Positions 22,711 to 29,872 of a stretch of 32,000 nucleotides of DNA are shown here, piece by piece; position 1 is the first letter of the stretch; each line of letters opens with the position of its first letter. The DNA lies in assembly GCF_001306055.1 (NCBI RefSeq), contig NZ_LGHJ01000012.1, positions 120,001 through 152,000 on the forward strand, given 5' to 3'. Origin of the DNA: Bellilinea caldifistulae (GTDB lineage: Bacteria > Chloroflexota > Anaerolineae > Anaerolineales > Anaerolineaceae). The notes under the pieces were generated by a model. That model ran no database searches. It was not told the DNA's origin and saw only the letters and a program-made list of their open reading frames with translations. The translations under genes were made by a program, and so were the position numbers.

Positions 22711-24083
22711 GGTGTAAGCAACTTCTCCACCGCCGATTGTGCCGCCTGAGCCGGGCTGGACTGGTTGCGCAGTACAGCCAGACCACTTTCCCTCAGCACC
22801 GGACCGAGACTGGCAAGGATTTCGTTCGAGGGGCGAATTTGTGCCGAAAGCACCACGCGGCTCAACGTGTTTTGCAGCGTGACCGGCTGCCAGGCCGAGA
22901 GAGAGGTGGGGTGTACCGGCAGATAACCAGCCGCCACCGCCCATTCGGCCAGAAAATCAGCCGCGTTGAGATACTCCGCCAGTTCCACCGCCATTTGACG
23001 GCGCTGCGGATCGGGATCGGCAATCGCCAGTCCCCAACCAATTGCCTGAGTAAAATCATCTCCACCCAGCGAGGGAAGTAACATGGGGGTCGTATCGGCT
23101 GGCAGTTCGCTCAGGTAAAAAGAGGCAAAAGTCACTGCCCAATCCGCCTGTCCTTCCAGATAGGCCTGCCAGACCTGCCCGCCGCTCTGATACTGGGTCA
23201 CCGATTGCGGAAACGTTCCCCGGCGGGCGCCTTCCTGATACAGTTCAAAAACTTGTTGCAGTAAATCCGCTTGCAGGGCAGGCCTGCCCTGCAAATCCTG
23301 CACCAGTCCACCCAGCGAACGGTACAGGGTCAGGGTAAGCAGGGCTTGGGGGTCATCGCCGGCGAAAAGAAGCGGGTTACCAAAGGCGAGTACTTCCTGC
23401 CAGGTTTGCGGCGGGCTGCCGCCTACGCTGGCCGGGCGGTAAAAGAGCATCAACGCATCGCCAGCAATCGGCAAAGCAAAGGGGATATCCTGCACCCGGC
23501 TCAACTGACGGGCATACGGATACCAGTCCACGCTTTCGATTTCTTCGCTCACCCCCTCCAGGGGATAGATCAGGCCTTTCAGAGCCGCCGCTTCCAGGTC
23601 ACCCCGGTTCAAGGCAATCACCGAGGGTAAGGCAGCCGGGGCGGCAGCAGCCGCCGCCGTCAGCGATTCGAGCAGCCCGCCCGGCCCGGAAGGGGCTTTG
23701 ATCCGTACATGAATCAACACCCCCGGATTTTCCTCCATGAACGCATCCAGCCGTTGCTGCAGCAATTGTGCGGCAGGAGTATCGGCAGCCGGGTCAAATT
23801 GCGGCGGCAGCCAGAGCGTGAGGGTGACTGCACCGCTAAAAGTCGGTTGTGGTTCGGGCGTAACGCTCGCTTCTGCCTCAGGTGTGAGCGTGATCGGGGC
23901 TTCCGGCGTGCTGGTCGGAGGGGGGCTGAATAACCCCGGCAAAATCGGTTCCAGCCACTGGACACATCCACCTAACAGTGCCAGAATCAAAACCGCCGCC
24001 GTCAGGCGCATCAGCGCCGGAGAGATCCTTCGGTTGCCATCCCCCTTTCGGTTTTTACCGGTGCGGGGAAGCAGACCAGTCAT
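22707..24083 (-). CDS. Extracellular solute-binding protein (ABC family-1 type), probable lipoprotein
   Basis: The signal/lipobox is AAVLILALLGGC, followed by a P/T/E linker and then an SBP-like body of about 380 aa. The ATG at 24083 overlaps the upstream TGA as ATGA. An alternative start is M25, at 24011. Confidence 0.7.
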   Translation of the reverse strand: MTGLLPRTGKNRKGDGNRRISPALMRLTAAVLILALLGGCVQWLEPILPGLFSPPPTSTPEAPITLTPEAEASVTPEPQPTFSGAVTLTLWLPPQFDPAADTPAAQLLQQRLDAFMEENPGVLIHVRIKAPSGPGGLLESLTAAAAAAPAALPSVIALNRGDLEAAALKGLIYPLEGVSEEIESVDWYPYARQLSRVQDIPFALPIAGDALMLFYRPASVGGSPPQTWQEVLAFGNPLLFAGDDPQALLTLTLYRSLGGLVQDLQGRPALQADLLQQVFELYQEGARRGTFPQSVTQYQSGGQVWQAYLEGQADWAVTFASFYLSELPADTTPMLLPSLGGDDFTQAIGWGLAIADPDPQRRQMAVELAEYLNAADFLAEWAVAAGYLPVHPTSLSAWQPVTLQNTLSRVVLSAQIRPSNEILASLGPVLRESGLAVLRNQSSPAQAAQSAVEKLLTP

Positions 24084-25078
24084 TTCAATTCAACCGGTGA
24101 TTCCAGCAAAGCCTTTAACAAGCCGACGGCGTTTTGCACATCCTCAAAATCCACCATCTCGGATGGCGTATGAATGTAACGGCAGGGGATGGAAAGACAG
24201 CCAGCCGGCACGCCGGCGCGGGTCAACTGCATGGCGCGGGCATCCGTTGACCCGCCTTCCAGAATCTCCAGTTGATAGGGAATGCCAGCCTGTTCGGCGG
24301 TATCCGCCATCCAGCGCACCACGCGCGGGTCGGCAATCATGCCGCTATCCTTGACTTTGATGGCGGGCCCCTTGCCAAGCGCAACCGCCATCTTCAACCC
24401 TTTGGGGGTATCGCCGGTAGCGGTTACATCCACCGCAATCCCAATTTCCGGGTCAACACCAAAAGCGGCAGTGGTAGCGCCCCGCACCCCAACCTCTTCC
24501 TGAGTGGAGAAGACGAAGTAGACCTCATGCGGGGTGTTCTTCAACTGGCGCAGCGTTTCCATCATGACCGCTACCGAGATGCGGTCATCCATAGATTTGG
24601 CTACCAACCGCTTGCCCAGGTCCAAAAACGGGCGTTCAAAAGCAGCCACATCCCCCACCCGTACCGGGCAATCCTCCTTGCTGGTTGCTCCCACGTCAAT
24701 GAACAATTTGTCAAAACTGTGGACGCGCTCCATATTTTCCAGACGTTCACCGCCGATTACCCCGGCAACCCCGTTCAAAAAGCGTACCCGTCCGCCATAG
24801 AGTGTGTGCGGACGCACGCCGCCAATGGTCGAAAAGCGCACAAAACCATTTTCATCTACATGAGTGGCAATCAGGCCGATTTCGTCCATGTGGGCCGCCA
24901 GCATGATGCGCTTGCCGGACGGGCTTTTTTGACCTTTTCGCACGACCAGATTACCCAGCGCATCCACGCGTACCTCATCCGCCCAATCTTTGACTTCTCC
25001 CAAAATCAGTTCGCGGACAGGCATCTCATAGCCCGAGGGGGCAATGGTTTCCACCAGTTTTTGAATTAGCGCTTTCAT
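24080..25078 (-). CDS. M42-family (TET/FrvX-like) aminopeptidase, paralog 3 in transcription order
   Basis: Starts MKALIQKLVETIAPSGYE. LAAHMDEIGL is present and the M42 pattern runs to the C-terminus. A GGAGA RBS precedes the ATG at 25078. The track start at 25210 overlaps the upstream gene. Confidence 0.85.
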   Translation of the reverse strand: MKALIQKLVETIAPSGYEMPVRELILGEVKDWADEVRVDALGNLVVRKGQKSPSGKRIMLAAHMDEIGLIATHVDENGFVRFSTIGGVRPHTLYGGRVRFLNGVAGVIGGERLENMERVHSFDKLFIDVGATSKEDCPVRVGDVAAFERPFLDLGKRLVAKSMDDRISVAVMMETLRQLKNTPHEVYFVFSTQEEVGVRGATTAAFGVDPEIGIAVDVTATGDTPKGLKMAVALGKGPAIKVKDSGMIADPRVVRWMADTAEQAGIPYQLEILEGGSTDARAMQLTRAGVPAGCLSIPCRYIHTPSEMVDFEDVQNAVGLLKALLESPVELK

Positions 25079-25097: not shown

Positions 25098-26177
25098 TTA
25101 GCGATCTTCTGAGAATAACTGCGGGCTGAGCCGCTCCAATCCATGATACAACAAAGACAGGGTGTTTTCCCAATCCAACAAGCGCGCTTGAAGGGCGGGG
25201 GTATGGGCATAGCGCACCGGTACCGAAACGGACACTACCGGAATACCCTCCCGCTGCTTGTGAATGGCGCCGGCATCCGTGCCGCCACCGCCGGGCTGGC
25301 GAATCTGATAAGGAATACCCATCTCCTCCGCCGTGCGAATCAGATGACGAATCAAGCGCGGGTCGGAAAGAGTGGCGGCATCGGCTACATAGATGGCCGG
25401 ACCACCCCCAAGGCGGGTATTATACCGGGTATTTTCCTCCCCGTCCCAGGCAGGCAAGTCATTGGCAGGGGTGGCATCTACGGCAATCGCCACATCCGGG
25501 TTGAACGCATAAGCCGCCACGCCAGCCCCGCGCAAGCCGATCTCCTCCTGCACGGTAAAGGCTGCCTGCAATTCCACGTTAGGCGGTGGATTTTTGATTA
25601 ACTCGATCAGGGCAGCCACGCCCAGCCGGTCATCCAGCGCCTTACCCACCAGACTCGGCCCAGCCTGCCGGAAACGAGTCGCAAAGCCAGCTCGCTCACC
25701 CGTTTTGACCTTCTTGCCGTTTTCATTGCCAAGGTCAATCCGTAATTGTTCAACCGTGAGGGCGTTTTTTCGCTCATCGGGTGTCGTCAGATGAATGGGG
25801 CGCGTGCCGATCACCCCCGGCAGATGCTCTTTTCCCACTAAAACCGGCTTGCCGACCAACACGCGCGGGTCAATACCGCCGACTACTTCAAAGCGATACC
25901 AACCGCCCTCTTCCTCTTCAACGAGGATGAAACCGACCTCGTCCATGTGGGCGGCCAGCATGACTCGCAGGGGGTTTTCTTCCTGGGCATGGCGCACGGC
26001 CAGCACATTCCCAAGGGCATCCACGCGCACTTCATCGGCAAAGGGTTGGATTTCCTCCAGTACGATGGCGCGCACTTCACGCTCATCACCCGAAACAGCC
26101 ACCGCATTCGACAGGCGTTCGAGCAGATCCAGTTGGCTTTTTGAAACAGGTTGTGAAAATGGGGAATATTCGCTCAT
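25098..26177 (-). CDS. M42-family aminopeptidase, paralog 2
   Basis: LLERLSNAVAVSGDEREVR and LAAHMDEVGF are present, and the protein is homologous in pattern to the other two copies. The ATG at 26177 lies 4 nt after the upstream TAG. Confidence 0.85.
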   Translation of the reverse strand: MSEYSPFSQPVSKSQLDLLERLSNAVAVSGDEREVRAIVLEEIQPFADEVRVDALGNVLAVRHAQEENPLRVMLAAHMDEVGFILVEEEEGGWYRFEVVGGIDPRVLVGKPVLVGKEHLPGVIGTRPIHLTTPDERKNALTVEQLRIDLGNENGKKVKTGERAGFATRFRQAGPSLVGKALDDRLGVAALIELIKNPPPNVELQAAFTVQEEIGLRGAGVAAYAFNPDVAIAVDATPANDLPAWDGEENTRYNTRLGGGPAIYVADAATLSDPRLIRHLIRTAEEMGIPYQIRQPGGGGTDAGAIHKQREGIPVVSVSVPVRYAHTPALQARLLDWENTLSLLYHGLERLSPQLFSEDR

Positions 26178-26181
26178 AAGA

Positions 26182-27129
26182 CTAATTCTTTTCGTGGTAT
26201 TTTTTGGGAACGAAATCCAACACGATTTTTTCAAGATCGCCTAAATTGCTCAGGTTCAGGAAGAAATGACAGTTTTCCCAAAGGCGATAAAGGTCTCGTC
26301 TTCTGGCCAGCCAGCCACCACCATCGGCAAAATTAACGAAAATTCGCTTTTCATTATAACGGCTATTACTATGACGAATGCGGTCATAAATTGCGAGCAT
26401 GTCCCGCGCCTTATTGGTTTGACCACTGCTTGTGGTTTCCTGGAAAGAGCTCATAATAATCACCCATGGGTCATCCAGGCTCGGCACTGCAAAATCTATG
26501 TCGGTTTCCACGAAACGTGATCGTCCTTGTTCAAACGGTATGCCATACTGGCTTTCAACTTTCCGCAAAACATTTTCTATTTCTGCTTCGACGTGATGTC
26601 CTTTTTTCGCGCCATAAGTCCCGATTAATGAGCGCTTGTAACGTACTTTGCGAGCCGCCTGTGTACTGGCACCAATTTCAGCGTAATTCAAACTTTCCAG
26701 ATAATATCGGGGAATAAAGGCAGTCAGTTCCCCATCATTGCAACCGTTAAAAAGTAAAGAAACGATTTGACTCAGAAAATTCGGATCTTGTGAAATCCTG
26801 CTCTTGATCCTGACAAGCGACCATTCTGCATCAAAACCGCCCTCAATTCTTCCTATGCGCCTCAAGAGAGAAATAATTCTCAAGAATTTTTCTTCGGAAA
26901 GCTCCAAATCCCTGAGAATAACATCCAAAACTGCGGGGTTTTGAACAATTTTCTTCCGCAAATCTTCTTCTCTAATCGGATGAACACCGGAAAGCTGCGC
27001 CTGGGCTGCCAGTTCCAGCAAATTGTCAACCTCTCGATCAATTTCATCCTCCAAAGAAGGATTTAGATAAAAAACGCTTGCGCTCTTCCAGACTTGCTCA
27101 AAGGATATTTTTTCAATGCTTCTGGTCAT
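26182..27129 (-). CDS. Putative restriction endonuclease partner (315 aa, helical N-half plus nuclease-like C-half); family unassigned
   Basis: The ATG at 27129 (MTRSIEKISF...) overlaps the methyltransferase 3' end by 17 nt. The C-half has elements typical of type II REase cores. These are YGAKKGHHVEAEIENVL, TDIDFAVP, VIIMSSFQETTSSGQTNKARD and FVNFADGGGW. From memory it resembles the DpnII/MboI-type layout, which I could not verify. Confidence 0.5.
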   Translation of the reverse strand: MTRSIEKISFEQVWKSASVFYLNPSLEDEIDREVDNLLELAAQAQLSGVHPIREEDLRKKIVQNPAVLDVILRDLELSEEKFLRIISLLRRIGRIEGGFDAEWSLVRIKSRISQDPNFLSQIVSLLFNGCNDGELTAFIPRYYLESLNYAEIGASTQAARKVRYKRSLIGTYGAKKGHHVEAEIENVLRKVESQYGIPFEQGRSRFVETDIDFAVPSLDDPWVIIMSSFQETTSSGQTNKARDMLAIYDRIRHSNSRYNEKRIFVNFADGGGWLARRRDLYRLWENCHFFLNLSNLGDLEKIVLDFVPKKYHEKN

Positions 27130-28792
27130 CGGCAATCTCCAATTTTGCGGCCTTGATCGCTTTCCCCCATGTCGGGAACACATCCAGATAAACTTTCAAA
27201 TCATATTGGCTGTAGGTTTCCACATCTTGCGGTGTGGGAAGTCTTCCTAGTTTTCTGGCCAACGAACGCAATTCCAGCTGGAGCTCTTTCTTTGTCAATT
27301 CCGTTTTTGAACGCCGGATAGAAGGACGAAGCACTTCCCCATTTTGCTGAACTTCTTGAATTTTTTTCTGCATCAATTCAACATAAAAGGGATCAATGTC
27401 AATTCCGACGAAACGACGGTTTAATTTTGCCGCCGTGATGATTGTGGTTCCAGTGCCGGCTAGCGCATCGAGAACGACATCATTTGGATTCGTTGTGAGT
27501 AATATGATTCGTTTGAGCAACGCTTCCGGCAATTGACAGGGATGCCAGTCACGATCACGCCGATGCTTAATCCGATGGATATCCCACCATATATCCGAAA
27601 GCATTTCCTGCTGGTTTTCACCCCTTAACTTCCGATTGCGAATACAGGAAGCCCGTAAACAATAGACACGGCTTTCAATATTCTTGATTGCTTCATAGTT
27701 AAACGTAAAACCTTCTTTTTGTTTGGTGTAAAAAAGCAGGCTGTAATGAGCAGGCATTAATTTTCCACGCGGCTCAGAAAGTGCATCCCAAACAATCCAG
27801 TTTTGAAAGTACAATCGCTGGTTCAGGTAATCAGCATGATACATGGACCAACGCGGGAGGTTCAGAACAAACAAAGAACCGGTAGGTTTCAAGACCCGGA
27901 TATATTCTGCCAGCCACTGATTACACCATTCCAGATATTCTTTACCAGCCAGTTCATCATTATACACATTGTAAGATTTGTCTAGATTATAGGGAGGATC
28001 AGCAAAGACCAAATCAATTGAATCGTTCGGATATTTCTTAAGAATCTCTAACGCATCTCCCTGTAATACCACATTAAAGCCGGGGATTGTCTCATCCAGA
28101 CGATCAGTGTTTGAAGCAGTTTTTTGCGGTTCAATCACCGAAAACAAGCCTGGTTGATATTGAATTCTATTTTCCCCAATCTGCTTCACTGTTGAGTTTG
28201 TGTGTAATGCCCCCGCCGGGCCAGCCCAGCCGACAATTTCCTTACCATTGACATCTACCAAACTCAATATCCGCTGAAAGGATGCTTCGCTCAAAGAAGT
28301 ATAGTTATCTTCTGTATCTAACGATTTCCAAACATCCGAAATGGCTGCCCCAGCCGGATTCATCAAGTGGGCTTTCCCTCCCCAGTCCTTCACTGTTTTA
28401 CCGCAGGCTTTGCAAAACTCATGGGGAGTTCTTATTTTGTTAATTTCAAAATGATGACCTTTTACAAACATCAATAAACCGGCGTGGACAGATGGTAGTC
28501 CATTGGTAAATTGTCTTACCCTGGACTCAAGAGCAATCCAGTACTTAAAGTTCAAGCGCTGATCGAGATACACCCCAAGCGAGGGCAAATTAAACGGCAA
28601 ACCCTGGACGAACAATATTCCACCAGGTTTCAAGGCACGCACCAGATTATCCAAAATATTATAAATGGACCGACGGGTCTCTTGACCAAGCCCGCCCGAA
28701 ATCAGTAAGGCAAAATCCAATGATTTGGATTCAAGCTTTTTAGCATTATCTACTATAAATGGTTCATCTGGTGTAATTAGATGTTTGATCAT
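27113..28792 (-). CDS. DNA methyltransferase, beta-class (DPPY, probably N6-adenine), with an N-terminal degenerate duplicate domain and a C-terminal accessory repeat
   Basis: Motif IV, FADPPYNL (aa 263-270), was confirmed on the DNA: GATCCTCCCTAT at 28000-27989. Motif I, LDALAGTGTT (aa 441-450), lies downstream of it, which is the beta order. Residues 24-196 repeat the same fold with the motifs lost. Confidence 0.85.
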   Translation of the reverse strand: MIKHLITPDEPFIVDNAKKLESKSLDFALLISGGLGQETRRSIYNILDNLVRALKPGGILFVQGLPFNLPSLGVYLDQRLNFKYWIALESRVRQFTNGLPSVHAGLLMFVKGHHFEINKIRTPHEFCKACGKTVKDWGGKAHLMNPAGAAISDVWKSLDTEDNYTSLSEASFQRILSLVDVNGKEIVGWAGPAGALHTNSTVKQIGENRIQYQPGLFSVIEPQKTASNTDRLDETIPGFNVVLQGDALEILKKYPNDSIDLVFADPPYNLDKSYNVYNDELAGKEYLEWCNQWLAEYIRVLKPTGSLFVLNLPRWSMYHADYLNQRLYFQNWIVWDALSEPRGKLMPAHYSLLFYTKQKEGFTFNYEAIKNIESRVYCLRASCIRNRKLRGENQQEMLSDIWWDIHRIKHRRDRDWHPCQLPEALLKRIILLTTNPNDVVLDALAGTGTTIITAAKLNRRFVGIDIDPFYVELMQKKIQEVQQNGEVLRPSIRRSKTELTKKELQLELRSLARKLGRLPTPQDVETYSQYDLKVYLDVFPTWGKAIKAAKLEIADDQKH

Positions 28793-28804
28793 CTTGAGAA
28801 TCAG

Positions 28805-29872
28805 TTACTCATCCCATTTCATTTGTTCCATAAAATTCGCCGGCAGGCTGGCGATGAATTGTGCCAGCAAGTGACCGGTACGCTGCACATCTTTCATGGA
28901 GATGATTTCCACCGGTGTATGCATGTAACGCAAGGGTATGCTCAGGACCGCCGTTGAGATGCCCTCCCCGATGATTTGCATGGCGTAGGCATCTGTGCCG
29001 GAGCGAGCCGGTAAAATTTCATTGTGGAAGGGGATGTCCAAGCGCTCCGCCGTCTCTTTGAGGGCACGGTAAAACGCCGGATGAATATTTGCCCCCCACC
29101 CAATCGTCAGCCCCTTGCCCAACGGGAAGGTGCGGTAATCCGAAGGTCCTCCCGGCCCTTTTGCAAAAGTTACATCCACTGCCACCGCCAGATCCGGGCG
29201 GATCGAAAACGGCGAGGTGTACCCGCCGCCCAGGGTAATTTCTTCCTGCACGGTGGCTACAGCCCACACATCCCACACATGATGTACCGGCTGCAACGCC
29301 CTGAGGCAAACAGTCAGGGCTGCAATTGAGGCGCGGTTATCCAGACTGTGACCAGCCAACAGGTCATTGCTCAATTCCAGCGGAGGCTGGGCAAACGAAA
29401 TCAGATCACCAACCCGCACCAGTTCCCGAACCTGCTCCGGCAGCAGGCCGGTATCCACCAGCAGGTATTTCAGGTCCACCGATTGCCGCGGCGAAACTTC
29501 GTCCGGCAGCAGGTGGGCTGGCGGCTGCACCACAACGGCTGGCAAGTCCTCTCGCCCATGCACAATCACCTGCTGACCGGGCAAAATGCGCGGGTCAATT
29601 CCGCCGATCGGGGTAAAACGCAGCCAGCCGTCCACAATTTCCGTCACCATCATTCCAATGGCGTCCATGTGGGCGGCCAGCAAAATGCTGGGGCGCGGTT
29701 CTTCACCACTGCCGCGTTTGAGGGCGTGCAGGCTGCCCAGCGGACTGAACGATATTTCATCCACCAGCGGCTGCCATTCCTGTTGAATCCGCTCGCCCAC
29801 CGGGCTTTCATAACCGGAAAGCCCCGGCAGAGAAATCAGATCTTTGAGAAAATCCTTGATTTCACTCATCAT
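28805..29872 (-). CDS. M42-family aminopeptidase, paralog 1
   Basis: LISLPGLSGYESPVGERI and LAAHMDAIGM are present, and the C-terminal PLRYMHTP matches PCRYIHTP and PVRYAHTP in the other copies. Confidence 0.85.
   Translation of the reverse strand: MMSEIKDFLKDLISLPGLSGYESPVGERIQQEWQPLVDEISFSPLGSLHALKRGSGEEPRPSILLAAHMDAIGMMVTEIVDGWLRFTPIGGIDPRILPGQQVIVHGREDLPAVVVQPPAHLLPDEVSPRQSVDLKYLLVDTGLLPEQVRELVRVGDLISFAQPPLELSNDLLAGHSLDNRASIAALTVCLRALQPVHHVWDVWAVATVQEEITLGGGYTSPFSIRPDLAVAVDVTFAKGPGGPSDYRTFPLGKGLTIGWGANIHPAFYRALKETAERLDIPFHNEILPARSGTDAYAMQIIGEGISTAVLSIPLRYMHTPVEIISMKDVQRTGHLLAQFIASLPANFMEQMKWDE

What the first reader, a model, noticed from the sequence alone, without database searches (positions are those of the whole stretch)
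26178..28804. AT-rich methyltransferase/nuclease islet inserted almost spacer-free between paralogous M42 peptidase genes
Seen in the sequence: three M42 paralogs lie on the minus strand at 28805-29872, 25098-26177 and 24080-25078. Two genes of clearly lower G+C sit between the first and second copies. Sampled 60-nt lines give 22/60 and 29/60 G+C inside, against 36/60 in the neighbouring M42 gene. The junctions are extremely tight. Only 12 nt separate the M42 TAA from the methyltransferase ATG. The methyltransferase and nuclease overlap by 17 nt. Only 4 nt separate the nuclease TAG (26182-26184) from the next M42 ATG (26177). I saw no integrase, transposase, tRNA or flanking inverted repeats. 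Inference: this is a horizontally acquired defence-type cassette with no room for its own promoter or terminator. It is presumably transcribed as part of a host peptidase operon, and it arrived by an unexplained route. It is the best candidate in this window for something not yet described.
Basis: partly seen in the sequence, partly recalled or inferred. Interest (0 to 1): 0.75.

Follow-up and report, generated by a model that had tools for sequence, protein, structure and literature searches.

The report
Old restriction-modification cassette inside peptidase operon
The A+T-rich two-gene islet is an ordinary-looking Type II restriction-modification (DNA defence) pair lodged long ago between two peptidase genes of Bellilinea and passed between related bacteria by recombination in the flanking genes. 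It is a real and tidy insertion, but of a known kind.

Summary
Window 26182-28792 (minus strand) has ~43% G+C against ~58% in the flanks, and the junctions are 12 nt, a 17-nt overlap and 4 nt.

The two genes are a Type II restriction-modification (R-M) pair:
- a beta-class N6-adenine methyltransferase (DPPY motif);
- a 315-aa endonuclease, weakly DpnII-like, whose model folds like BstEII/BsoBI.

The window is Bellilinea caldifistulae, where NCBI already names the nuclease DpnII.

The insertion is real. A relative with 92-94% identical peptidases has the empty site (TAA-TTT-ATG), as do ~60 other Anaerolineae loci.

It is neither recent nor unique. The same cassette sits at the same site in at least six lineages, including Anaerolinea thermolimosa. 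All these cassettes form one clade (100% bootstrap). Both genes are under purifying selection (dN/dS 0.07-0.14). Third-codon-position G+C stays ~0.43 although synonymous sites are saturated.

Cassette and flank phylogenies conflict, and the similarity switch lies 30-45 nt inside the flanking genes. This points to exchange by homologous recombination, which removes the "unexplained route".

Homologous pairs occur in ~75 species in many different housekeeping contexts and always have lower G+C than their hosts.

Verdict: a new member of a known kind, of modest interest.

The parts
28805..29872 (-). M42a, the first M42 aminopeptidase paralog and the upstream host gene. Its last ~33 nt (28805-28837) belong to the tract shared with A. 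thermolimosa.
   Evidence: Pfam PF05343, E 4.9e-71. The last 33 nt are 88% identical to A. thermolimosa, against ~66% for the gene as a whole (alignment).
28793..28804 (-). 12-nt spacer between the M42a stop and the methyltransferase start (left junction).
   Evidence: Read from the sequence. The spacer is 12-13 nt, with unconserved sequence, in the type-1 cassettes (L017, L018, L019, L097). In L026 the M42a stop overlaps the methyltransferase start.
27113..28792 (-). Type II beta-class N6-adenine DNA methyltransferase, 559 aa.
   Evidence: PF01555, E 2.7e-57. PADLOC MTase_II, E 3.5e-80. Nearest solved relatives are M.MboIIA, CcrM and M.RsrI. The DPPY and AGTGTT motifs are read from the translation. 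dN/dS is 0.08-0.14.
28094..28792 (-). N-terminal degenerate half-domain of the methyltransferase (aa 1-233). It is an internal duplicate of motifs IV-VIII plus the TRD (target-recognition domain) region, with DPPY changed to DEPF and no SAM-binding half.
   Evidence: BLASTP of aa 5-187 against the catalytic domain gives E 7e-10. On its own it hits PF01555 profile positions 25-150. The DNA-level repeat D1 links 27793-27829 to 28534-28570.
27353..28075 (-). Catalytic N6_N4_Mtase domain (aa ~240-480).
   Evidence: PF01555 best stretch is aa 259-475. The M.MboIIA match covers aa 240-473.
27137..27295 (-). C-terminal HNH_repeat (homing-endonuclease-associated repeat) domain of the methyltransferase. 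It is probably a DNA-binding module.
   Evidence: PF18780, E 3e-10 to 1e-11, aa 500-552.
27137..27140 (-). GGAG Shine-Dalgarno-like motif 7 nt upstream of the endonuclease ATG, inside the methyltransferase gene.
   Evidence: Read from the sequence.
26182..27129 (-). Type II restriction endonuclease, 315 aa. It overlaps the methyltransferase gene by 17 nt.
   Evidence: PF04556 DpnII, 22.7 bits against a cut-off of 23; relatives reach 30.3 bits. PADLOC REase_II, E 8e-4. AlphaFold model pLDDT 84.7. Foldseek best matches are BstEII 9ibq (E 1e-4) and BsoBI 1dc1 (E 9e-4), both with probability 1.00. dN/dS is 0.065. NCBI names it a DpnII restriction endonuclease.
26178..26181 (-). 4-nt spacer between the endonuclease stop and the M42b start (right junction).
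   Evidence: Read from the sequence.
25098..26177 (-). M42b, the second M42 paralog and the downstream host gene. Its first ~45 nt (26133-26177) belong to the tract shared with A. thermolimosa.
   Evidence: PF05343, E 1e-75. The first 45 nt are 89% identical to A. thermolimosa and 73% to Bellilinea L018. Over the whole gene the values are 67% and 81%.
24080..25078 (-). M42c, the third M42 paralog and the next gene in the operon.
   Evidence: PF05343, E 1.1e-89.

Best explanation
The islet is a two-gene Type II restriction-modification cassette.

What the parts are. The first gene encodes an N6-adenine DNA methyltransferase that marks the host's copies of a so far unknown recognition sequence. 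The second gene is translationally coupled to it through a 17-nt overlap and its own GGAG. It encodes a restriction endonuclease of the PD-(D/E)XK nuclease type that cuts unmarked DNA.

How it is expressed. The cassette has no promoter or terminator of its own. It is most likely transcribed as part of the long same-strand host operon: (MoxR-VWA)-137aa-M42a-[MTase-REase]-M42b-M42c-SBP (solute-binding protein).

How it got there and spread. It entered the stop/start spacer between M42a and M42b once, in an ancestor of the Bellilinea group. It has stayed there under purifying selection. It then spread to, or was replaced in, other lineages by homologous recombination whose crossovers lie in the conserved flanking peptidase genes:
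- gained by the Anaerolinea thermolimosa lineage;
- lost, or replaced by an empty allele, in the lineage of L098.

Composition. The low G+C is a stable property of this gene family in all hosts. It is not a mark of recent arrival.

Shown: gene identities, the insertion and the empty site, monophyly of the cassettes at this site, phylogenetic discordance with the flanks, purifying selection, and persistent low G+C.

Inferred: enzymatic activity, operonic transcription, and recombination as the transfer mechanism.
For: Identity:
- Pfam, PADLOC and PDB matches for the methyltransferase.
- Weak DpnII/BanI profile matches for the endonuclease, plus a confident model that matches BstEII and BsoBI.

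Functionality:
- dN/dS is 0.07-0.14 for both genes in three comparisons.
- The M-then-R order is kept in ~60 loci.

Insertion:
- The empty site TAA-TTT-ATG occurs in L098, whose M42 proteins are 92-94% identical.
- About 60 further loci have M42a adjacent to M42b.

Age and single origin:
- The cassette sits at the same site in the window, L017/L099, L018, L019, L097/L011-13, L026/L014-16 and L090.
- The M42-site cassettes form one clade in both the endonuclease and the methyltransferase trees, with 100% bootstrap support.
- Synonymous divergence within the clade is saturated.

Lateral exchange:
- The window's cassette groups with A. thermolimosa (97.5% bootstrap; the host-like grouping gets 0%).
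- The flanks are 65-67% identical to A. thermolimosa and 80-85% identical to Bellilinea relatives.
- Against A. thermolimosa the cassette is ~82% identical at nucleotide level and the flanks ~66%. Against Bellilinea relatives the relation is reversed.
- The lineages nearest to A. thermolimosa have empty sites.
- The similarity switch lies within the first ~45 nt of M42b and the last ~33 nt of M42a.

No mobility apparatus.

Precedent: PMC2853133 and PMC7973814.
Against: - No expression or methylation data exist, so activity and co-transcription are inferred.
- The recognition sequence could not be deduced. GATC is only mildly under-represented.
- The endonuclease in the window scores just below the Pfam DpnII cut-off, and its catalytic residues were not mapped.
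- The recombination tracts in the flanks are short (30-45 nt) and rest on few informative sites (5 T against 4 B in the first 60 nt of M42b).
- Flank identity between the two genera (~66%) is low for classical RecA-dependent exchange.
- Trees are neighbour-joining on tblastn-derived segments.
- Why the G+C stays low is not explained by the data.
Confidence: 0.8

Rival explanations
1. This is a recent horizontal acquisition private to this genome. The low G+C is then the un-ameliorated signature of a foreign donor.
For: The G+C drops sharply by ~15 points. Codon-position G+C is distinct from the flanks. A close relative has an empty site.
Against: The same cassette sits at the same site in at least six lineages of two genera. 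Cassette copies differ by dS 0.8 to more than 1.8 yet all keep GC3 at 0.36-0.49. Family-wide, the pair has lower G+C than its host in 61 of 61 loci, and its G+C tracks the host's (r = 0.81, slope 0.83).
Confidence: 0.03
2. Inheritance was purely vertical. The cassette was present in the common ancestor of Bellilinea and A. thermolimosa, was lost many times, and was never transferred laterally.
For: The site is identical in all carriers. The M42-site cassettes are monophyletic.
Against: The window's cassette is sister to that of A. thermolimosa (97.5% bootstrap) and not to those of the much closer Bellilinea relatives (0%). Against A. thermolimosa, cassette dS (0.8-1.2) is lower than flank dS (1.5-1.8). 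Against L018 it is higher (1.85 against 1.0-1.3). The lineages nearest to A. thermolimosa, and ~60 others, are empty, so dozens of precise losses would be needed.
Confidence: 0.07
3. The cassette repeatedly targets this junction, or operon stop/start junctions in general, by an active mechanism of its own. One example would be restriction-driven homing into unmodified empty sites. Another would be targeting through the methyltransferase's HNH_repeat DNA-binding domain.
For: - The same site is used in two genera.
- Homologous pairs lie at very tight junctions inside other housekeeping operons: fcl/gmd at 15 and 17 nt, aminotransferase/leuS, and helicase/efp at 3 and 21 nt.
- Co-orientation with the upstream gene is enriched (82% against 66%, p = 0.015).
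- The methyltransferase carries a homing-endonuclease-associated repeat domain.
- Other small A+T-rich genes have landed in the same operon in other lineages.
Against: - Cassettes at the M42 site are monophyletic, so independent insertions are not required.
- The shared tract extends into the flanking genes, as expected for recombination and not for precise insertion.
- Tight spacing is not significantly more frequent than for ordinary gene pairs in the same loci (37-39% against 27%, p = 0.07-0.16).
- No conserved sequence is seen at the junctions.
Confidence: 0.08
4. The pair is a domesticated, non-defence module. It would be kept for epigenetic regulation, or to stabilise the peptidase operon by post-segregational killing, and not for phage defence.
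For: It has resided at the site for a long time under purifying selection. It sits inside a conserved operon.
Against: The endonuclease is retained intact with the methyltransferase in essentially all loci, which is the signature of a working R-M pair. The pair is absent from most Anaerolineae that have the same operon, so the operon does not need it. Addiction and defence are not mutually exclusive.
Confidence: 0.05

Closest known systems
Type IIP restriction-modification systems with a beta-class (PF01555) m6A methyltransferase and a DpnII/MboI-family (PF04556) endonuclease
   Same: It has two adjacent co-oriented genes. The methyltransferase has the DPPY motif IV and the AGTGTT motif I in the beta-class order. 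The C-terminal ~105 residues of the endonuclease match the DpnII and BanI profiles. NCBI names it DpnII family.
   Different: - Only the C-terminal third of the DpnII profile is matched, and the window's protein is 0.3 bits below the cut-off.
- There is a single methyltransferase, whereas the DpnII cassette has DpnM and DpnA (my own knowledge).
- The methyltransferase carries an extra degenerate duplicated half-domain and a C-terminal HNH_repeat domain.
- The specificity is unknown, and GATC is not clearly avoided.
BstEII (PDB 9ibq) and BsoBI (PDB 1dc1) restriction endonucleases
   Same: They are the best structural matches to the endonuclease model (Foldseek E 1e-4 and 9e-4, probability 1.00, near full-length alignment).
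   Different: Sequence identity is only 10-11% and TM-scores are 0.40-0.44. Sequence or profile searches against the PDB find nothing. This is a fold-level resemblance, not family membership.
R-M units lodged between housekeeping genes without mobility genes, such as NmeDI between pheS and pheT in Neisseria meningitidis (PMC7973814), and Type II R-M inserted into operon-like clusters (Furuta et al. 2010, PMC2853133)
   Same: The cassette has low G+C. It sits at a stop/start junction inside a conserved housekeeping cluster. Related genomes have an empty site. There is no integrase or transposase. Spread is attributed to recombination with flanking homology.
   Different: No flanking long target duplication is detectable here. 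The hosts are Chloroflexota, whose natural competence is unknown. The insertion is old, being shared across species and one other genus.

Membership tests
Type II restriction-modification system | [quoted passage not shown] | tested here: met
   The methyltransferase lies at 27113-28792 and the endonuclease at 26182-27129. They share a strand and overlap by 17 nt. The pairing is conserved in ~60 loci.
Type II restriction-modification system | Methyltransferase with a SAM-binding motif I and a catalytic motif IV | tested here: met
   FADPPY and LDALAGTGTT are read from the translation. PF01555 is matched over its full length, E 2.7e-57.
Type II restriction-modification system | Endonuclease with a restriction-enzyme fold and catalytic core | tested here: inconclusive
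   The fold matches BstEII and BsoBI with probability 1.00. Invariant D212, E231 and K240 are seen in the alignment. The catalytic residues were not mapped onto a structure.
Type II restriction-modification system | Site-specific cleavage that is blocked by the cognate methylation | not testable with these tools
   This needs enzymology or a methylome.
DpnII restriction endonuclease family (PF04556) | Score above the Pfam gathering threshold over the family profile | tested here: inconclusive
   The window's protein scores 22.7 bits against a cut-off of 23. Its relative P0023 scores 30.3 bits. Only profile positions ~167-273 of 278 are matched.
DpnII restriction endonuclease family (PF04556) | GATC recognition | tested here: inconclusive
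   GATC observed/expected is 0.79 in host flanks that carry the pair and 0.90 in loci without it. This is not decisive.
Beta-class N6-adenine DNA methyltransferases (PF01555; MboIIA, RsrI, CcrM) | Motif order IV-VIII, TRD, X, I-III, with D-P-P-Y as motif IV | tested here: met
   DPPY lies N-terminal to AGTGTT. The best PDB relatives are M.MboIIA (3e-29), CcrM and M.RsrI.
R-M insertion with long target duplication (Furuta et al. 2010) | Direct repeats flanking the R-M unit that correspond to a single copy at the empty site | tested here: not met
   No direct repeat pairs the two junctions. The empty site is TAA-TTT-ATG. An ancient duplication could have decayed.
R-M insertion with long target duplication (Furuta et al. 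2010) | An empty site in a related genome | tested here: met
   L098 and ~60 other loci have the empty site.
Integrase- or transposase-borne genomic island | An adjacent integrase, transposase or tRNA gene, with terminal repeats | tested here: not met
   No mobility family recurs among 108 neighbours in other contexts.

The most novel reading that the evidence does not exclude
This family of promoter-less Type II R-M pairs in Chloroflexota may have a specialised 'operon-lodger' lifestyle. It would settle at stop/start junctions of conserved housekeeping operons and borrow their transcription. It would keep an A+T-rich coding style under selection, for example to throttle expression. It would spread between species by converting empty alleles. 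That conversion could be helped by its own endonuclease cutting unmodified empty chromosomes (homing-like), or by the HNH_repeat DNA-binding domain of the methyltransferase.
Probability: 0.12. Interest if true: 0.55.

Novelty: new member of a known kind. Interest (0 to 1): 0.3.

Why it matters
It is a clean natural example of how a defence cassette without any mobility gene persists and moves. There was one ancient insertion at an operon junction. The cassette was retained under selection, lost or replaced in one close lineage, and transferred to another genus with crossovers just inside the flanking genes.

It also shows that a sharp G+C trough is not by itself evidence of recent transfer. 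Here the trough has outlasted saturation of synonymous sites.

Practically, the pair is a candidate new restriction enzyme and methyltransferase from thermophilic Chloroflexota, with an unusual methyltransferase architecture. It is also a likely barrier to genetic manipulation of these poorly tractable organisms.

Tried and rejected
1. Recognition site from palindrome avoidance (one search timed out). GATC is only mildly depleted. ATCGAT shows the largest difference between hosts with and without the pair (observed/expected 0.46 against 1.03), but several other 6-mers behave similarly. The host sets are heterogeneous, so no assignment was made.

2. Consensus promoter and terminator scan. Counts equal those from shuffled sequence, so the scan is uninformative beyond showing no obvious signal.

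3. Flanking direct or inverted repeats. None at the junctions.

4. Carriage on known plasmids or phages. No plasmid hit. The only phage hit of note is a ~30% identical homolog in a Streptococcus prophage.

5. Sequence and profile searches of the endonuclease against the PDB. Nothing found; only fold comparison worked.

6. Apparent frameshift of the endonuclease in L090. It coincides with masked N runs, so it is not evidence of decay.

7. 'Tight embedding is special'. A control with ordinary gene pairs in the same loci shows the spacing is not significantly tighter. Only co-orientation with the upstream gene is enriched.

8. The global alignment of the empty-site locus L098 to the filled operon misaligned. 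Gene-by-gene alignments replaced it.

9. A literature search for these organisms' R-M systems or methylomes found nothing relevant.
Full report
**1. The observation**

The window comes from Bellilinea caldifistulae (GCA_001050215.2, contig DF967971.1).

- Three Peptidase_M42 genes lie on the minus strand at 28805-29872 (M42a), 25098-26177 (M42b) and 24080-25078 (M42c). They are 36-41% identical to each other.
- Between M42a and M42b lie a 559-aa ORF (27113-28792) and a 315-aa ORF (26182-27129).
- G+C falls from 0.52-0.63 to 0.41-0.46 within one 150-nt step at each edge. The shift affects all three codon positions: 0.51/0.36/0.43 in the pair against about 0.65-0.70/0.42/0.62-0.66 in the flanks.
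- The junctions are a 12-nt spacer, a 17-nt overlap and a 4-nt spacer, exactly as stated.
- There is no tRNA gene in the window.
- No integrase or transposase lies within 10 kb on either side.
- No repeats pair the two junctions.

**2. What the genes are**

The first gene is a beta-class N6-adenine DNA methyltransferase.

- It gives a full-length PF01555 match (E 2.7e-57) and a PADLOC Type II MTase match (E 3.5e-80).
- Its nearest solved relatives are M.MboIIA, CcrM and M.RsrI.
- The DPPY motif lies N-terminal to AGTGTT.

It has two additions.

- An N-terminal ~230-aa region is a degenerate duplicate of the first half of the catalytic domain. BLASTP gives E 7e-10, and DPPY has become DEPF. The duplication is still visible at the DNA level as repeat D1.
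- A C-terminal HNH_repeat domain is also present (PF18780).

The second gene has only weak profile matches: DpnII at 22.7 bits against a cut-off of 23, BanI, and PADLOC REase_II. Relatives pass the DpnII threshold, and NCBI names the protein a DpnII restriction endonuclease. An AlphaFold model built on 20 homologs (pLDDT 84.7) is most similar to the Type II enzymes BstEII and BsoBI (Foldseek probability 1.00). A GGAG lies 7 nt before the endonuclease's ATG, inside the end of the methyltransferase gene.

This is a Type II restriction-modification (R-M) pair in the usual order, methyltransferase first and endonuclease second, with translational coupling between them.

**3. Is it an insertion, and how old is it?**

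A scan of metagenome contigs with M42b returned 80 loci. About 60 of them contain both M42a and M42b, directly adjacent. One of these is L098, whose M42 proteins are 92-94% identical to the window's. Its empty site reads TAA-TTT-ATG. So the operon M42a-M42b-M42c-SBP (solute-binding protein) is the ancestral state, and the pair is an insertion.

The insertion is not private to this genome. The same pair sits at the same junction in several other places:

- Anaerolinea thermolimosa (L006/L017/L099);
- three other Bellilinea-like lineages (L018; L019; L097 and L011-13);
- in a more divergent form, two further Bellilinea MAGs (L026 with L014-16, and L090).

In neighbour-joining trees of both proteins, all cassettes from the M42 site form one clade. 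A concatenated bootstrap supports it at 100%.

Both genes are under purifying selection (dN/dS 0.065-0.14), although synonymous divergence within the clade is at or beyond saturation.

The simplest reading is one old insertion, with the cassette retained as a working system.

**4. How it moved**

Cassette and host histories disagree.

- Host flanks. The window, L097, L098, L018 and L019 are roughly equidistant (80-85% nucleotide identity). L026 is further away (73-76%) and A. thermolimosa further still (65-67%).
- Cassettes. The window's cassette is sister to that of A. thermolimosa (97.5% bootstrap). The host-like grouping gets 0%.
- Along the operon, identity to A. thermolimosa is ~66% in the flanks and ~82% in the cassette. 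Against Bellilinea relatives the relation is reversed.
- The lineages closest to A. thermolimosa have empty sites, so A. thermolimosa is the likely recipient.
- The switch points lie just inside the flanking genes. The first 45 nt of M42b are 89% identical between the window and A. thermolimosa and 73% identical to L018. The last 33 nt of M42a are 88% identical to A. thermolimosa (alignment).
- The empty-site lineage L098 is nested among filled lineages. Its M42b 5' end is unlike theirs. This fits replacement of the junction by an empty allele.

Together this indicates allelic exchange by homologous recombination in the flanking genes. It needs no mobility gene and so removes the 'unexplained route'. 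The weak points are that the tracts are short and that inter-genus flank identity is low for RecA-type exchange.

**5. The wider family**

A scan of species-representative genomes found the same pair in ~75 species. Most are Chloroflexota: Anaerolineae, Thermoflexales, Caldilineaceae, Promineifilaceae and Ardenticatenia. A few more distant copies occur in Nitrospirota, Thermodesulfovibrionales, Brocadiia, Bacteroidia and Armatimonadota.

Contexts are almost all different, and they are housekeeping. Examples are fcl-like/gmd, class-IV aminotransferase/leuS, and DinG-like helicase/efp. No mobility family recurs among 108 immediate neighbours.

The pair has lower G+C than its flanks in 61 of 61 loci, by 8.8 points on average. 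Its G+C tracks that of the host (r = 0.81, slope 0.83). Low G+C is therefore an equilibrium property of the family.

Within the M42-site clade, GC3 stays at 0.36-0.49 against 0.61-0.74 in the flanks, despite saturated synonymous change. Weaker selection or weaker biased gene conversion on accessory genes may explain this (my own knowledge). Selection for low expression is another possibility. Neither was tested.

A control shows that tight spacing to neighbours is not significantly more frequent than for ordinary gene pairs in the same loci. Only co-orientation with the upstream gene is enriched (82% against 66%, p = 0.015, from crude gene calls). That enrichment is consistent with dependence on read-through transcription.

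**6. Comparison with what is known**

R-M units without mobility genes, lodged at start/stop junctions and in operon-like clusters with empty sites in relatives, are documented by Furuta et al. 2010 (PMC2853133). NmeDI lies between pheS and pheT in Neisseria (PMC7973814).

The present case lacks the flanking target duplication described by Furuta et al.. Otherwise it fits that picture. The enzymes themselves are uncharacterised, and their recognition sequence could not be inferred.

**7. Verdict**

The islet is a horizontally mobile defence cassette embedded in a host operon with no signals of its own. But it is old, it is shared with relatives, it is already annotated as an R-M system, and its route is explicable.

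It is a new member of a known kind and of modest interest (0.3). The most novel reading still open is a dedicated operon-lodging, homing-like lifestyle for this family, to which I give about 12%.

Noticed in passing
L135:1270-1734, L124:2389-2826, L148:7059-7886, L153:1756-2541, L168:1380-3570: In other Anaerolineae the junction between M42b and M42c carries different inserted genes. Two are A+T-rich islets: a PDDEXK_3 nuclease (G+C 0.48 against 0.62) and a Pol-beta-type nucleotidyltransferase (0.47 against 0.64). The others have host-like G+C: an aminoglycoside 3-N-acetyltransferase, S51 peptidases, and an MFS transporter. The junctions of this operon seem to be recurrent landing places.
   Followed up: partly
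window:27793-27829 and 28534-28570 (inside the methyltransferase gene): The methyltransferase contains an internal duplication. Its N-terminal ~190 aa are a degenerate copy of motifs IV-VIII of its own catalytic domain, with DPPY changed to DEPF and no SAM-binding part. This may act as a built-in pseudo-dimer partner. It is conserved across the family, where homologs are ~550-560 aa.
   Followed up: partly
L089, L091, L094, L096: The most distant endonuclease homologs (34-40% identity) have a different arrangement. The endonuclease comes first and is followed by a much shorter methyltransferase match (~245 aa), or the methyltransferase is on the opposite strand (L089). This looks like a variant without the duplicated half-domain.
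   Followed up: no
window plus L017, L018, L019, L026 (pooled): AGCT is strongly under-represented in the loci of the Bellilinea group (91 observed against 299 expected). CTAG is also low (15 against 42). The AGCT deficit hints at another AluI-like restriction pressure in these genomes.
   Followed up: no
pooled flanks of L017-L096 against L098-L176: ATCGAT shows the largest difference in avoidance between hosts that carry the pair (observed/expected 0.46) and M42-operon loci without it (1.03). TCGCGA, AGGCCT, ACGCGT and GTCGAC behave similarly. This is a weak lead to the recognition site.
   Followed up: partly
window:29894-30307 (-): A 137-aa ORF directly upstream of M42a is very rich in Pro and Thr (TPTPT-type low complexity) after a hydrophobic N-terminus. 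It has no Pfam match, and the region has a strong local GC skew (+0.38). It is conserved in position in relatives as a 131-142 aa gene.
   Followed up: no
window:24080-31200 and L098-L176: The cluster MoxR-like ATPase, VWA protein, small ORF, three M42 aminopeptidase paralogs and a solute-binding protein is conserved in order across many Anaerolineae. Three tandem M42 paralogs might form mixed TET-like peptidase complexes.
   Followed up: no
phage record MK448700.1:22-909 (Streptococcus phage Javan191): A distant homolog of the endonuclease (30% identity over 96% of its length) lies at the very start of a streptococcal prophage record. It is annotated as a hypothetical protein.
   Followed up: no
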